Assembly: GCF_016026235.1 (NCBI RefSeq)
Contig: NZ_CP065613.1
Direction: 5' to 3' (one strand)
Origin: Escherichia coli
GTDB lineage: Bacteria; Pseudomonadota; Gammaproteobacteria; Enterobacterales; Enterobacteriaceae
Length of the DNA stretch: 64,000 bases
The notes beneath the pieces are model-generated. The model was not told the DNA's origin. It saw only the letters and a list, made by a program, of their open reading frames with translations, and did not search any database. Each line of letters starts with the position of its first letter. Position 1 is the stretch's first letter. Positions 12,015-15,559 of this stretch are shown in pieces. The position numbers and the translations under genes are program-made.

Positions 12015-13131
12015 ACCAGCCACGGAGTGTTATATGTCCCGAAAAGACCTTGCCAATGCGATTCGCGCACTCAGTATGGATGCGGTACAAAAAGCCAATT
12101 CTGGTCATCCCGGCGCGCCGATGGGCATGGCTGATATTGCCGAAGTGCTGTGGAACGATTTTCTTAAACATAACCCTACCGACCCAACCTGGTATGATCG
12201 CGACCGCTTTATTCTTTCCAACGGTCACGCGTCGATGCTGCTCTACAGTTTGCTACATCTGACCGGTTACGACCTGCCGCTGGAAGAACTGAAGAACTTC
12301 CGTCAGTTGCATTCGAAAACCCCTGGCCACCCGGAAATCGGCTATACGCCCGGTGTTGAAACCACCACCGGTCCACTTGGACAAGGTTTGGCGAACGCCG
12401 TCGGACTGGCGATAGCAGAGCGTACACTGGCGGCGCAGTTTAACCAGCCGGATCATGAAATTGTCGATCACTTCACCTATGTGTTTATGGGCGACGGCTG
12501 CCTGATGGAAGGTATTTCCCACGAAGTCTGTTCGCTGGCGGGCACGCTGGGACTGGGCAAGCTGATTGGTTTTTACGATCACAACGGTATTTCGATTGAT
12601 GGAGAAACCGAAGGCTGGTTTACCGACGATACGGCAAAACGTTTTGAAGCCTATCACTGGCATGTGATCCATGAAATCGACGGTCACGATCCGCAGGCGG
12701 TGAAGGAAGCGATCCTTGAAGCGCAAAGCGTGAAAGATAAGCCGTCGCTGATTATCTGCCGTACGGTGATTGGCTTTGGTTCGCCGAATAAAGCAGGTAA
12801 GGAAGAGGCGCACGGCGCACCACTGGGGGAAGAAGAAGTGGCGCTGGCACGGCAAAAACTGGGCTGGCACCATCCGCCATTTGAGATCCCTAAAGAGATT
12901 TATCACGCCTGGGATGCCCGCGAAAAAGGCGAAAAAGCGCAGCAGAGCTGGAATGAGAAGTTTGCCGCCTATAAAAAGGCTCATCCGCAACTGGCAGAAG
13001 AGTTTATCCGTCGGATGAGCGGTGGTTTACCGAAGGACTGGGAGAAAACGACTCAGAAATATATCAATGAGTTACAGGCAAATCCGGCGAAAATCGCTAC
13101 CCGTAAGGCTTCGCAAAATACGCTTAACGCT

Positions 13132-13396
13132 GATATGACTTTCCGTGTCAAACCGGAATCTCTAATTTTGACGATTTTCTTTTTAGGTTTAATTCCCTGA
13201 GGGCGACGTAGCAGTAAATCCGACGGTGAATCACGCTGATATTCGCGGGTTGGATACCGCATTACAGAGGTCCGTCATATGAGCCTGCCACTTTCTTACG
13301 TCGCGAATCAGCTTTGTTCCGCCGTCGCCAAGCGCTAACGTGGGTTACTCTTGTACCGGGCTACGTCGCCTTCAGGGAACTGGTTATTCTCATTTT
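13132..13396 (-). ncRNA. Candidate structured non-coding RNA (bridge/seek-type guide RNA) in the 3' non-coding region of the IS110-family element
   Basis: No credible ORF; long-range inverted repeat CCCTGAGGGCGACGTAGC (13195-13212) pairs with GCTACGTCGCCTTCAGGG (13360-13377) at 17 of 18 positions; strand and exact ends not determined. Confidence 0.3.
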
Positions 13397-14524
13397 TTAT
13401 TTGTGACATTGTGGTTGTTGTGCGACAGACATTGCTATTCGGCCCATATCCCAGATAAAACCCGCCAGCTCACGTGCAACAGCAACAATTGTAATATTGA
13501 CATTCTTTCCTTTGGCCTGAAGTTTTCGATACCTCTTACAAAGCCTGAGTTGAGCATCCCATGCTCTGTCAATGACGGGGCGGGGTAAATTTTCCTGCCT
13601 TTTTTGTATTGCCGGACTGATGCGTGCCGGATGACGGTAACTCCACGCTGCCTCGACCAATAGCTTTCTGGCATAGCTGTTTCCGGCTTTGGTAATGCTG
13701 CCCTGATGTCTGCTTCCACCCGATGAATATTCTGATGGCGTGATACCAAACCATGACATCAGTTGTCGTGGATGTTCAAAACGGGTCAGATCACCCAGTT
13801 CAGAAATTAATCCAACCGCAGTAATAAACTGAATCCCTCGCATGGCTTGCAGCGCCTCTACTACCGGATACAGCCTCCATTCGGTAACGGCCTCCTTCAG
13901 GGCGGATTCCAGCCGTTCACATTGTGCCTGCCGGTCTTCTATTGTACGACGGTGTTCGTCAAAAGCTAATTGTCGCCAGGGACTTTCGAATGAGTATTTG
14001 CTGAGCCAGCGTCGGTGTGCAGGGCCCCAATCTGCTCGCCCGACATAATGGACCCCATGAACCAGAAGAAACGATTTCAGACGTTGCCTTGCATGCCGTA
14101 AATCATCGCGGGCAGATGCCCATGCCCGGGCCAAATCCCGGAATGCCTCATCTTCAATGCCGGGTACGTAGACAGCAGAAAGATCTCCTGCACGCAGTGA
14201 ACGCACAAGTCTGATGGCATCACGGCGATCGGTTTTAACCCGCTCCCCCGGTTTTTTCGGGATAAGTGAGGGGGCGCAGACCATGCAGTCAAAACCGGAT
14301 TTCACCAGCCGACGATAAAGTCCATAACCACAGGGCCCCGCTTCATAAACGATACTGACCTGCGATGACTTTGACCTGAGACGTTTACAAAGATTCTGAA
14401 TATCAGTAGGTGATGTGCCAATTTTACCCATCAGTTCAACAGGTTCTGAATTGATAGCATAAGCGACAGTAATCGATTCTTTGTGAACATCTAACCCGAC
14501 GTACAATGTGTTATTGTTGTTCAT
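13397..14524 (-). CDS. IS110-family (DEDD) transposase/recombinase, 375 aa
   Basis: ORF track 13397..14572; start assigned at MNNNNTLYVGLDVHK; RuvC-like acidic motifs (LYVGLDVHK, VYEAGPCGY, KTDRRDA) and a C-terminal GITPSEYSSGGS...SITKAGNSYARK region. Confidence 0.85.
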   Translation of the reverse strand: MNNNNTLYVGLDVHKESITVAYAINSEPVELMGKIGTSPTDIQNLCKRLRSKSSQVSIVYEAGPCGYGLYRRLVKSGFDCMVCAPSLIPKKPGERVKTDRRDAIRLVRSLRAGDLSAVYVPGIEDEAFRDLARAWASARDDLRHARQRLKSFLLVHGVHYVGRADWGPAHRRWLSKYSFESPWRQLAFDEHRRTIEDRQAQCERLESALKEAVTEWRLYPVVEALQAMRGIQFITAVGLISELGDLTRFEHPRQLMSWFGITPSEYSSGGSRHQGSITKAGNSYARKLLVEAAWSYRHPARISPAIQKRQENLPRPVIDRAWDAQLRLCKRYRKLQAKGKNVNITIVAVARELAGFIWDMGRIAMSVAQQPQCHK

Positions 14525-15559
14525 GCTGGCCTCCGTGGTGGAAATACCGGGGTGTAGCAACAGCTCACCCATGCGGCTCTGACAACGATGTTAACCCGCG
14601 TTAAATATCCCACGTTGGCCAGCATCTGTCTCACGGAAAGTCATACTGCCTTACGGGCCGATGCTACCGGAGCTGCTCGGCGGTTCGGCGGATCTGGCTC
14701 CCAGCAACCTGACCATCTGGAAAGGTTCTGTTTCGCTGAAGGAAGATCCGGCGGGCAACTACATTCACTACGGGGTGCGTGAATTTGGCATGACCGCTAT
14801 CGCCAACGGCATTGCGCACCACGGCGGCTTTGTGCCGTATACCGCAACGTTCCTGATGTTTGTTGAATACGCCCGTAACGCCGCGCGGATGGCGGCACTG
14901 ATGAAAGCGCGGCAGATTATGGTTTATACCCACGACTCAATTGGTCTGGGCGAAGATGGTCCGACGCACCAGGCTGTTGAGCAACTGGCCAGCCTGCGCT
15001 TAACGCCAAATTTCAGCACCTGGCGACCGTGCGATCAGGTGGAAGCGGCGGTGGGCTGGAAGCTGGCGGTTGAGCGCCACAACGGACCGACGGCACTGAT
15101 TCTCTCCAGGCAGAATCTGGCCCAGGTGGAACGTACGCCGGATCAGGTTAAAGAGATTGCTCGTGGCGGTTATGTGCTGAAAGACAGCGGCGGTAAGCCA
15201 GATATTATTTTGATTGCCACCGGTTCAGAGATGGAAATCACCCTGCAAGCGGCAGAGAAATTAGCGGGAGAAGGTCGCAATGTTCGCGTAGTTTCCCTGC
15301 CCTCGACCGATATTTTCGACGCCCAGGATGAGGAATATCGGGAGTCGGTGTTGCCTTCTAACGTTGCGGCTCGCGTGGCGGTGGAAGCAGGTATTGCCGA
15401 TTACTGGTACAAGTATGTTGGTCTGAAAGGGGCAATTGTCGGGATGACGGGTTATGGGGAATCTGCTCCGGCGGATAAGCTGTTCCCGTTCTTTGGCTTT
15501 ACCGCCGAGAATATTGTGGCAAAAGCGCATAAGGTGCTGGGAGTGAAAGGTGCCTGATG

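What the first reader, a model, noticed from the sequence alone, without database searches (positions are those of the whole stretch)
13132..13396. Candidate guide (bridge/seek-type) RNA in the 265-bp non-coding region of the IS110-family element
The 265 bp between the transposase stop and the element end has no credible ORF. It contains a long-range inverted repeat (13195-13212 against 13360-13377, 17 of 18 complementary, extendable by flanking AATTCC/GGAACT) enclosing about 145 nt. IS110-family elements are known to encode structured RNAs that base-pair with both target and donor DNA. Inside the enclosed region, GTCATAT (13274-13280) is the reverse complement of the element's left terminus ATATGAC (13133-13139) and matches the right-end inverted-repeat core. 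CTTACG (13295-13300) is identical to the tktB hexamer straddling the insertion point (GCT|TACG). These matches are only 6-7 nt, so each could be chance.
Basis: partly seen in the sequence, partly recalled or inferred. Interest (0 to 1): 0.7.

Follow-up and report, generated by a model that had tools for sequence, protein, structure and literature searches.

The report
Guide (bridge/seek) RNA gene of ISSso6
The 265-bp non-coding tail of this insertion sequence (ISSso6, inserted in the tktB gene) encodes the structured guide RNA that IS110/IS1111 elements use to choose their insertion site by base pairing; it is real and well supported, but it is a known kind of system and was already predicted for this element.

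Summary
The element (window 13132-14649, flanked by CT on both sides) is ISSso6, an IS110-family, IS1111-group element inserted in tktB. Its transposase is on the minus strand, so the 265-bp non-coding region lies downstream of it. A roughly 195-nt structured RNA is encoded at 13189-13383 on the minus strand.

Across 51 relatives (transposase 48-81% identical), 34 of 48 base pairs show compensatory changes. Frequent G-U pairs fix the strand.

Two hypervariable patches flank a hairpin and co-vary with the insertion-site flanks:
- UUAGCGCUU (13330-13338) is complementary to the target top strand AAGCGTTAA.

That segment varies while the element ends do not. A better donor-guide candidate is AUAUCAG (13236-13242), which equals the right end plus the core.

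Bridge RNAs and seekRNAs were described in 2024, and ISSso6 is listed in that survey with a predicted right-end bridge RNA. The finding is therefore already known in kind. What this work adds is the guide assignment.

The parts
13132..14649 (-). ISSso6 insertion sequence (IS110 family, IS1111 group), 1518 bp, inserted in tktB. The CT dinucleotide (AG in transposase orientation) is present on both sides, at 13130-13131 and 14650-14651.
   Evidence: Megablast finds full copies at 99-100% identity annotated 'IS110-like element ISSso6 family transposase'. The empty site was reconstructed and found intact in other E. coli. Junctions were read.
13397..14524 (-). Transposase/recombinase gene, 375 aa from MNNNNTLYVGLD. 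The open frame extends upstream to 14572.
   Evidence: ORF list. NCBIfam NF033542 'IS110 family RNA-guided transposase' scores 273.9 bits against a cutoff of 140. Homologues carry PF01548 and PF02371.
13189..13383 (-). Guide (bridge/seek) RNA gene: conserved structured core of about 195 nt. The transcript ends are unknown.
   Evidence: The covariance model built from relatives scores 201 bits (E about 1e-55) on the minus strand and 33 bits on the plus strand. The consensus structure has 34 of 48 pairs with compensatory change.
13360..13382 (-). Basal stem P1, 5' strand.
   Evidence: helix 1 has 22 pairs, 20 of them with changes on both sides.
13191..13212 (-). Basal stem P1, 3' strand.
13330..13338 (-). 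Right-target guide (RTG), RNA 5'-UUAGCGCUU-3'. It is complementary to the target top strand 5'-AAGCGTTAA-3' (one base of the left flank, the AG core, and the right flank), with 8 Watson-Crick pairs and 1 G-T wobble.
   Evidence: Mutual information forms a diagonal between RNA columns 54-58 and right-flank positions +7 to +3. Own-flank complementarity is 6.05 of 8, against 3.11 of 8 for non-self pairings. E. coli copies have right flanks AGCG[TC][TC]AA, and L086 is a perfect complement.
13302..13329 (-). Hairpin P5, separating the two target guides.
   Evidence: Helices 5 and 6 have all 7 pairs with compensatory changes.
13295..13300 (-). Left-target guide (LTG), RNA 5'-CGUAAG-3'. It is identical to the top strand of the left flank plus the AG core, so it pairs with the bottom strand.
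   Evidence: Mutual information links RNA columns 97-99 with left-flank positions -6 to -4. Own-flank identity is 4.9 of 7, against 3.3 of 7 for non-self. All 10 distinct E. coli insertion sites end in GTAAG, and 5 of 10 in CGTAAG.
13281..13291 (-). 3' strands of stems P4 (13288-13291) and P3 (13281-13284), which close the target-binding loop. Their 5' partners are at 13340-13343 and 13347-13350.
   Evidence: P4 changes from CCAC/GUGG to CCGC/GCGG or CCUC/GAGG. Three of 4 pairs in P3 are compensatory.
13274..13280 (-). Hypervariable junction ('var3'), RNA AUAUGAC. It is not a supported donor guide.
   Evidence: It varies among relatives (TGAGAC, TTGGGC, TCAGGC and others) while the ends stay invariant. 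It shows no diagonal with ends or flanks. Its weak correlations track clade membership.
13245..13260 (-). Hairpin P6 (GCGG...CCGC) in the multiloop.
   Evidence: helix 7, one pair compensatory in 9 sequences.
13236..13242 (-). Candidate left-donor guide, RNA 5'-AUAUCAG-3'. It is identical to the element's right end ATATC plus the AG core. It is single-stranded and sits directly 3' of P6, mirroring the position of the LTG after P5.
   Evidence: It is a 7 of 7 match and is nearly invariant, as is the right end. It changes partly in step with the right end in a distant clade. An unrelated nested IS1111-type element has AUAGAAG after a hairpin, and its own right end is ATAGA+AG.
13134..13151 (-). 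Right-end sub-terminal inverted repeat (13134-13147, TATGACTTTCCGTG on the plus strand) overlapping an invariant TTGACA (minus strand, 13146-13151). TTGACA would be the -35 box of a circle-junction promoter.
   Evidence: Sequence. TTGACA is conserved in all relatives' right ends. Junction promoters are described for this family in PMC11187229 and PMC12288879.
14632..14649 (-). Left end: terminal GCAG plus the sub-terminal inverted repeat (14632-14645).
13124..13131 (+). Target half-site on the tktB side next to the element's right end. It reads TTAACGCT on the plus strand, which is AGCGTTAA in transposase orientation.
14650..14657 (+). Target half-site next to the element's left end. It reads CTTACGGG on the plus strand, which is CCCGTAAG in transposase orientation.

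Best explanation
The region encodes the guide RNA (seekRNA / bridge RNA) of ISSso6, an IS1111-group member of the IS110 family.

**Transcript (inferred).** The RNA is made from the transposase strand (window minus strand). It probably arises as the 3' part of the transposase transcript, driven in the excised circle by a junction promoter. That promoter would use TTGACA in the right end and CAGTAT in the left end, 17 nt apart.

**Fold (shown by covariation).** A long basal stem (P1) closes a multiloop. One arm of the multiloop (P3, P4) carries a target-binding loop: 5'-UUAGCGCUU, then hairpin P5, then CGUAAG-3'.

**Target recognition.**
- Shown by covariation and by ten independent insertion sites: the first guide is complementary to the top strand of the target across the core and the right half-site (AAG-CGTTAA). 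The second guide is identical to the top strand of the left half-site plus the core (CGTA-AG), so it would pair with the bottom strand.
- Inferred from the family's known mechanism: with the DEDD recombinase, this pairing directs insertion at ...CGTA-AG-CG(Y)(Y)AA..., here inside tktB. The same guides recognise the flanks again for excision.

**Donor recognition (only partly resolved).** The single-stranded AUAUCAG after hairpin P6 copies the right end plus the core and is the likely left-donor guide. No convincing guide for the left end was found. That end may be read by protein through the 14-bp sub-terminal repeats.
For: - **Identity of the element.** It matches ISSso6 copies at 99-100%. 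The transposase fits NF033542 'IS110 family RNA-guided transposase' at 273.9 bits.
- **Layout.** The long non-coding region lies downstream of the transposase, and 14-bp sub-terminal repeats are present. Both are typical of the IS1111 group (PMC11187229, PMC11208160).
- **Structure.** The RNAalifold consensus on 50 relatives has 16 of 48 compensatory pairs. With distant relatives added, 97.2% of cells are paired and 34 of 48 pairs are compensatory. None of 500 shuffles reaches this, and slid controls give 32-45% paired.
- **Strand.** G-U pairs on the minus strand are frequent: 4:275 in 33 sequences, 48:149 in 22, and 20:260 in 17. The covariance model scores 201 bits on the minus strand against 33 bits on the plus strand.
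- **Guides.** Mutual information forms diagonals between RNA and flanks. Twenty of 38 loci have at least 7 of 8 Watson-Crick pairs between the right-target guide and their own right flank, against 1.5% of non-self pairings. Ten distinct E. coli ISSso6 sites share GTAAG | AGCG(Y)(Y)AA.
- **Reach.** The RNA is found downstream of the transposase, on the same strand, in relatives down to 48% protein identity.
- **Donor guide.** AUAUCAG equals the right end plus the core. An unrelated nested element shows the same pattern.
- **Prior prediction.** ISSso6 is listed with a predicted bridge RNA in its right end, group IS1111, in Durrant et al. Supplementary Table 5.
Against: - No expression data exist for this copy. 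No sigma-70-like promoter or intrinsic terminator brackets the RNA in the linear element.
- Rfam 15 gives no match, even at E up to 10.
- The left-target guide is short (5-6 nt), and its own-flank score (4.9 of 7) exceeds the non-self score (3.3 of 7) only moderately.
- Some relatives (L002, L038, and the L022/L029/L034 group) fit their right flank poorly around the core.
- The donor side is incomplete. UACUG, which is complementary to the left-end sequence CAGTA, does not co-vary with left-end variants. The AUAUCAG assignment rests mostly on invariant sequence.
- The alignment used was fitted to the model, which favours the structure.
Confidence: 0.88

Rival explanations
1. Target-only seekRNA. 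The RNA selects the target and recognises the flanks for excision, but carries no donor guides. The element's ends are then recognised by the transposase through the sub-terminal inverted repeats, and AUAUCAG is a scaffold or protein-binding sequence.
For: - Siddiquee et al. found only target-matching segments in IS1111-type seekRNAs, and showed that the flanking target sequence is required for circle formation.
- No covarying guide for the left end was found.
- The ends and AUAUCAG are both nearly invariant, so covariation cannot prove that they pair.
Against: - AUAUCAG is a 7 of 7 copy of the right end plus the core, in the position that mirrors the left-target guide.
- The corresponding segments in a distant clade and in an unrelated nested element follow their own right ends.
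- Durrant et al. report donor-binding nucleotides in multiloops of IS1111 bridge RNAs.
Confidence: 0.25
2. The functional RNA is on the plus strand. It would be an antisense RNA overlapping the 3' end of the transposase transcript and would regulate it, rather than guide it.
For: - The plus strand also folds well (-93.5 kcal/mol, z = -4.1).
- Antisense small RNAs exist in some IS110 elements such as ISPpu9.
- The one mismatch in the basal stem is a G-T on the plus strand.
Against: - Many conserved G-U pairs on the minus strand would be A-C mismatches on the plus strand.
- The model scores 201 bits on the minus strand against 33 bits on the plus strand.
- The A/C mismatch in P1 is conserved in all relatives, so it is a feature of the structure and does not indicate the strand.
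- The guide order (top-strand match 5' of the bottom-strand match) fits the IS1111 rule only on the minus strand.
Confidence: 0.03
3. It is a DNA-level or generic 3'-UTR element with no guide function. Examples would be a transposase-binding site, a hairpin that stabilises or terminates the transposase mRNA, or relic sequence.
For: - A long GC-rich stem downstream of a gene can act as an mRNA stabiliser.
- There is no expression evidence here.
- Rfam gives no hit.
Against: - Compensatory changes, including G-U pairs, indicate selection on RNA pairing.
- Hypervariable loop patches track the flanks of each element. A stabiliser or a protein site would not do this.
- No T-run follows the stem on the minus strand.
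Confidence: 0.03

Closest known systems
seekRNA of ISEc11, ISPa11 and ISKpn4 (IS1111 family; Siddiquee et al. 2024, PMC11187229)
   Same: - It is encoded in the long non-coding region downstream of the transposase gene, on the same strand.
- Two short segments match the target. The one complementary to the top strand lies 5' of the one complementary to the bottom strand, and their matches overlap at the insertion point.
- Sub-terminal inverted repeats are present.
- The right end carries a -35 box for a junction promoter.
- Close relatives show natural retargeting through changes in the guide patches.
   Different: - ISSso6 itself was used there only as a transposase sequence in the tree. Its RNA was not analysed and has not been tested experimentally.
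- The transposase is longer (375 aa against 330-350 aa for the typical IS1111 family).
- Homology between this RNA and the ISEc11 RNA could not be tested, because the ISEc11 record was not in the collections.
Bridge RNA of IS621 (IS110 group; Durrant et al. 2024, PMC11208160; Hiraizumi et al. 2024, PMC11208158)
   Same: - A DEDD recombinase is paired with one structured RNA.
- One guide is identical to the top strand of the left half-site plus the core. The other is complementary to the top strand of the right half-site plus the core.
- Exchange occurs at a 2-nt core.
- A second guide set copies the element's ends.
   Different: - The IS621 RNA lies upstream of the gene, in the left end. Here it lies downstream, in the right end.
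- The guide order within the loop is reversed.
- The candidate donor-binding nucleotides sit in a multiloop, not a second internal loop.
- Only the left-donor guide could be identified.
- The core is AG in transposase orientation, against CT for IS621 (the IS621 core is from my own knowledge, not a tool result).
Predicted IS1111-group bridge RNAs (ISPa11, ISCARN28, ISAzs32 and the ISfinder-wide survey in Durrant et al. 2024, Fig. 6 and Supplementary Table 5)
   Same: ISSso6 is listed in that table with the bridge RNA located in the right end and group IS1111. The donor-binding nucleotides are described as lying in a multiloop.
   Different: In the text held here, the survey gives only the location for ISSso6. 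This work adds the guide-to-target assignment, the consensus structure and the target consensus GTA-AG-CG(Y)(Y)AA.

Membership tests
IS110 family, IS1111 group insertion sequence (ISSso6) | DEDD (RuvC-like) transposase with the PF01548 and PF02371 domains | tested here: met
   NF033542 scores 273.9 bits against a cutoff of 140. All 120 listed homologues carry PF01548 and PF02371. The motif GITPSEYSSG fits the G(L)-P----S/T-G pattern quoted.
IS110 family, IS1111 group insertion sequence (ISSso6) | Sub-terminal inverted repeats of 7-17 bp with short terminal extensions | tested here: met
   The 14-bp repeat TATGACTTTCCGTG at 13134-13147 has its complement at 14632-14645. The terminal extensions are GA (plus strand, right end) and GCAG (left end).
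IS110 family, IS1111 group insertion sequence (ISSso6) | Longer non-coding region downstream of the transposase gene | tested here: met
   There are 265 bp downstream, against 77 to 125 bp upstream depending on the start codon.
IS110 family, IS1111 group insertion sequence (ISSso6) | Site-specific insertion without a long target duplication | tested here: met
   The empty site was recovered with a single CT. Ten distinct E. coli sites share GTAAG | AGCG(Y)(Y)AA.
IS110 family, IS1111 group insertion sequence (ISSso6) | Near-identity to the reference ISSso6 | tested here: met
   Full-length copies annotated as 'ISSso6 family transposase' by PGAP match at 99-100%. The protein start MNNNNTLYVGLDVHKESITVAY is identical to the ISSso6 entry in the Siddiquee source data.
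Bridge RNA / seekRNA | Conserved RNA secondary structure in the non-coding end, on the transposase strand | tested here: met
   Thirty-four of 48 pairs are compensatory and 97.2% of cells are paired, with controls far lower. G-U pairs fix the strand.
Bridge RNA / seekRNA | Two loop segments that pair with opposite strands of the target, overlap at the core, and co-vary with the insertion site | tested here: met
   Mutual-information diagonals. Self versus non-self complementarity is 6.05 against 3.11 of 8, and 4.9 against 3.3 of 7. E. coli copies agree.
Bridge RNA / seekRNA | IS1111-type order: the top-strand-complementary guide lies 5' of the bottom-strand-complementary guide | tested here: met
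   The right-target guide is at RNA nt 46-54 and the left-target guide at nt 84-89. The rule is quoted from PMC11187229.
Bridge RNA / seekRNA | Donor-binding guides matching both element ends (the full 'bridge' definition) | tested here: inconclusive
   AUAUCAG equals the right end plus the core, 7 of 7, with partial cross-clade and cross-family support. No co-varying guide for the left end was found: UACUG fails against left-end variants.
Bridge RNA / seekRNA | Match to a curated RNA family model | tested here: inconclusive
   Rfam 15 gives no hit at E up to 10. I could not establish whether Rfam holds any bridge RNA family, so the negative result says little.
Bridge RNA / seekRNA | The RNA is expressed, binds the transposase and is required for transposition | not testable with these tools
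   This needs RNA-seq or Northern blotting, RNP purification and transposition assays.

The most novel reading that the evidence does not exclude
The DNA that encodes the donor-type guide (…GAUAUC-AG-CGUGAU…) may itself be a recombination site, because it copies the element's right end.

- In one E. coli copy it appears to have been used as a pseudo right end, producing a 106-bp tandem duplication.
- In at least four Paraburkholderia genomes a second IS1111-type element sits exactly at this AG. That element's own RNA carries GUGAUCACGCU, a perfect complement of the flank.

This would be an RNA-guided insertion sequence whose programmed target is the guide-RNA gene of another insertion-sequence family.
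Probability: 0.55. Interest if true: 0.45.

Novelty: already known. Interest (0 to 1): 0.2.

Why it matters
For genome annotation, it gives a specific function to a stretch that is otherwise labelled non-coding. It also explains why ISSso6 landed at this exact point in tktB: the site reads CGTA-AG-CGTTAA.

For the field, it adds a well-resolved natural example of an IS1111-type guide RNA. The example includes explicit guide coordinates, a target consensus, tolerated G-T wobbles, and about 50 naturally retargeted relatives. These could serve as starting material for reprogramming experiments.

It does not change what is known about how these systems work. Bridge RNAs and seekRNAs were described in 2024, and a bridge RNA in the right end of ISSso6 was already predicted in that survey.

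Tried and rejected
- **Rfam 15, permissive scan of 12900-14900:** no match. Uninformative.
- **Promoter and terminator scan:** nothing brackets the RNA in the linear element. The only terminator-like hit in the region is on the plus strand, over the right-end repeat.
- **GTCATAT / AUAUGAC ('var3') as a donor guide:** rejected. It varies in relatives whose ends are invariant. It does not correlate with the left-end position x, the repeat interior or the flanks. Its correlations with other columns look like clade signal.
- **UACUG (13212-16) as a right-donor guide complementary to the left-end sequence CAGTA:** rejected. Left-end variants (CACTA, CATTA, CAATA, CATCA) have no compensating change in the RNA.
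- **The segment 5' of hairpin P6 (CUCUGUAAU) as a right-donor guide:** it fits the left end in some distant clades (for example UUGUCU against AGACAA in L076) but not in the ISSso6 clade. Left open.
- **Helix P7 (13221-13233) and helix 2:** predicted by RNAalifold but with no compensatory support. An alternative pairing, GACGG with CCGUC, is equally possible.
- **Plus-strand RNA:** rejected on the G-U evidence.
- **Small ORFs overlapping the region (13053-13262 minus strand, 13340-13588 plus strand):** I did not test whether they are conserved or coding. The substitution pattern across the region is that of paired RNA (compensatory changes).
- **Fetching ISEc11 (CP053751) to test homology with a validated seekRNA:** the record is not in the collections.
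- **The single-sequence minimum-free-energy fold of the interior:** it differs from the consensus and was not used.

Full report
**What is in the window.**
- Bases 13132-14649 are a copy of ISSso6 inserted in the transketolase gene tktB. The tktB reading frame runs into the element at 13131 and resumes after 14651.
- Megablast against complete E. coli genomes finds full-length copies at 99-100% identity, annotated 'IS110-like element ISSso6 family transposase'.
- I joined the two flanks with a single CT. The resulting 140-nt sequence is 100% identical to uninterrupted tkt genes, and the site is present in 5424 of 5426 genomes. The native site is therefore AACG-CT-TACGGG, and CT (AG in transposase orientation) stands on both sides of the 1518-bp element.
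- The transposase is on the minus strand (13397-14524, 375 aa). It fits NCBIfam NF033542 'IS110 family RNA-guided transposase' at 273.9 bits against a cutoff of 140.
- The 265-bp non-coding stretch of the finding therefore lies downstream of the gene. The element has 14-bp sub-terminal inverted repeats (13134-13147 and 14632-14645).
- Both features are the hallmarks of the IS1111 group (PMC11187229; PMC11208160).

**Checking the observation.**
The arms 13191-13212 and 13360-13382 pair over 22 positions with one mismatch. GTCATAT is at 13274-13280 and CTTACG at 13295-13300.
- The region folds far better than shuffled sequence: z = -4.6 for the whole tail and -5.4 for the core, with 0 of 200 shuffles as stable.
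- The short matches cannot be judged from one sequence, so I collected relatives.

**Relatives.**
- A protein search found thousands of homologues. The closest are 72-95% identical and are mostly from Burkholderiales.
- A scan of one genome per species returned 80 loci with transposases 48-81% identical.
- In all loci with enough sequence, the region downstream of the gene contains a block that aligns with window 13189-13383 on the transposase strand. The scaffold is highly conserved and is interrupted by three hypervariable patches.

**Structure and strand.**
One arm (P3, P4) ends in an internal loop with a capping hairpin (P5). There is also a second hairpin (P6). Sixteen of 48 pairs show compensatory changes.
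- A covariance model built from this alignment finds the RNA in the distant relatives as well. It is always downstream of the transposase gene and on the same strand, with E-values from 1e-17 to 1e-33.
- On the 51-sequence alignment, 97.2% of cells are paired and 34 of 48 pairs have changes on both sides. None of 500 shuffles reaches this, and slid controls give 32-45% paired. That alignment is fitted to the model, which favours it, but the margin is large.
- Helices 2 and 8 have no compensatory support.
- Many conserved G-U pairs exist on the minus strand and would be A-C mismatches on the plus strand. The RNA is therefore on the window's minus strand.

**Guides.**
- I located the ends of each relative (…GTCATATC at the right, xCAGTATGAC… at the left) and its flanks.
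- Mutual information between RNA columns and flank positions gives two clean diagonals. RNA columns 54-58 pair antiparallel with right-flank positions +7 to +3. RNA columns 97-99 run parallel with left-flank positions -6 to -4.
- The first patch is 5'-UUAGCGCUU-3' in the window (13330-13338). It is the reverse complement of one left-flank base, the AG core and the right flank.
  - In 38 loci it forms 6.05 of 8 Watson-Crick pairs with its own flank, against 3.11 with other loci's flanks.
  - Twenty of 38 loci reach at least 7 of 8, against 1.5% of non-self pairings.
It equals the left flank plus the core: 4.9 of 7 against 3.3 of 7 for non-self.
- In the window, the pairing is UUAGCGCUU with AAGCGTTAA (8 Watson-Crick pairs and one G-T) and CGUAAG with the complement of CGTAAG.
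- Ten distinct ISSso6 insertions in E. coli carry the same guides. They sit in …GTAAG | AGCG(T/C)(T/C)AA…, and one of them (L086) is a perfect complement.
- The order, with the top-strand-complementary guide 5' of the bottom-strand-complementary guide, is the order reported for IS1111-type seekRNAs.

**The rejected match.**
- It is complementary to the right terminus in this element. In most relatives, however, the patch reads differently (TGAGAC, TTGGGC, TCAGGC and others), while the termini are essentially invariant.
- It shows no diagonal with ends or flanks. Its correlations with other columns follow the two main clades.
- I regard the 7-nt match as lineage-specific chance.

**Donor side.**
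- The single-stranded AUAUCAG (13236-13242) lies directly after hairpin P6, mirroring the left-target guide after P5. It is a 7 of 7 copy of the right end ATATC plus the AG core.
- Both it and the right end are nearly invariant, so covariation is limited. Two observations still help.
  - In a distant clade the right end is …CATGAG-AG and the RNA reads UAUCAGAG or CAACAGAG at that place: 6 of 8 with its own end, against 4 of 7 across clades.
  - In an unrelated IS1111-type element found nested in some relatives, the RNA has a hairpin followed by GGAUAGAAG, and that element's right end is …CATAGA-AG.
- I could not find a guide for the left end. UACUG (13212-13216) is complementary to CAGTA, but left-end variants are not compensated. 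The segment 5' of P6 fits the left end only in some distant clades.
- Durrant et al. note that IS1111 bridge RNAs appear to hold donor-binding nucleotides in a multiloop. Siddiquee et al. found only target matches and showed that the flanks are needed for excision. My data fit either view for the left end.

**Expression.**
- No promoter-like or terminator-like site brackets the RNA in the linear element.
- The right end carries an invariant TTGACA. After circle formation it would lie 17 nt from CAGTAT in the left end. This is the junction promoter described for this family.
- Transcription and processing are inferred, not shown.

**Comparison with what is known.**
- This is the seekRNA/bridge RNA of an IS1111-group element. 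The class was described experimentally in 2024 for ISEc11, ISPa11, ISKpn4, ISEc21 and IS621.
- ISSso6 appears in Siddiquee's data only as a transposase sequence.
- In Durrant's Supplementary Table 5 it appears as 'RE, IS1111', meaning a bridge RNA predicted in its right end.
- No paper in the library analyses ISSso6's RNA in detail.
- The finding is real and correctly interpreted, but it is already known in kind and was already predicted for this element.
- This work adds the strand, the structure, the two target guides, the target consensus and a donor-guide candidate.

**Side observations.**
- One E. coli copy (L081) has a 106-bp tandem duplication. Its junction joins the right end to the sequence that follows the internal AUAUCAG-coding DNA.
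- In at least four Paraburkholderia genomes a second, complete IS1111-type element is inserted exactly at that internal …GATATC-AG-CGTGATC… site.
- That nested element's own RNA contains GUGAUCACGCU, a perfect complement of the flank, followed by a hairpin and …UUUCAG.
- The guide-coding DNA, which mimics the element's end, therefore seems to be both a pseudo-end and the programmed target of another insertion sequence.

Noticed in passing
L092:2915-4480 (Paraburkholderia sp. BL9I2N2, SMGP01000006.1); also L013, L025, L035, L043, L093-L095: A second, complete IS1111-type element (transposase 383 aa) is nested in the ISSso6-like guide-RNA gene, exactly at GGATATC-AG-CGTGATCC, with AG on both sides. 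Its own 3' non-coding region carries GUGAUCACGCU, a perfect reverse complement of the right flank. That is followed by a hairpin and ..UUUCAG, which matches the left flank. It also carries GGAUAGAAG, which copies its own right end ATAGA+AG. It looks like an RNA-guided IS whose target is another IS family's guide-RNA gene.
   Followed up: partly
L081 (E. coli FDAARGOS_943 chromosome, NZ_CP065615.1 282051-283889): This ISSso6 copy is 1623 bp instead of 1517 bp. The 106 bp from just after the internal AATATCAG to the right end ...GTCATATCAG are tandemly duplicated. The pattern suggests that the internal ATATCAG(CGT), which copies the right end plus the core, recombined with the true right end.
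   Followed up: partly
Loci L004, L012, L014, L019, L030, L045, L056, L058, L059, L064, L069 (junctions listed): In many relatives the left junction has AG but the right junction has AA, and the right-target guide then reads UU rather than CU. This fits a target core AA and a donor core AG with exchange between the two core bases. A few loci (L022, L088/L089) have GG at the right junction.
   Followed up: no
window 13146-13151 (minus strand TTGACA), with 14643-14648 (minus strand CAGTAT): The right end holds an invariant TTGACA. After circularisation it would lie 17 nt upstream of CAGTAT in the left end. This is a probable junction promoter for the transposase and the RNA.
   Followed up: partly
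L003 flanks; also L014, L019, L056: Some relatives sit in palindromic targets. In L003, for example, the left flank AACGCACAGGCTAG and the right flank AGCTGTGCGTT are inverted repeats of each other. This suggests REP-like or terminator-like target sites in Burkholderiales.
   Followed up: no
L090 and L091 (E. coli C51 and SWYHX138.261ft): These ISSso6 variants are 98.4-98.6% identical to the window copy. They have point changes in the guide region (RTG UUAGCGCCU and stem P4 CCUAC) and frameshifted transposase genes. They sit in a site (GTAAG | AGTGAATG) that fits the right-target guide poorly. They are probably decaying copies.
   Followed up: no
L092:12-1166: A third IS110-family transposase gene lies immediately upstream of the ISSso6-like element in the same Paraburkholderia contig. 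That makes three IS110-type genes in a row within 4.2 kb.
   Followed up: no
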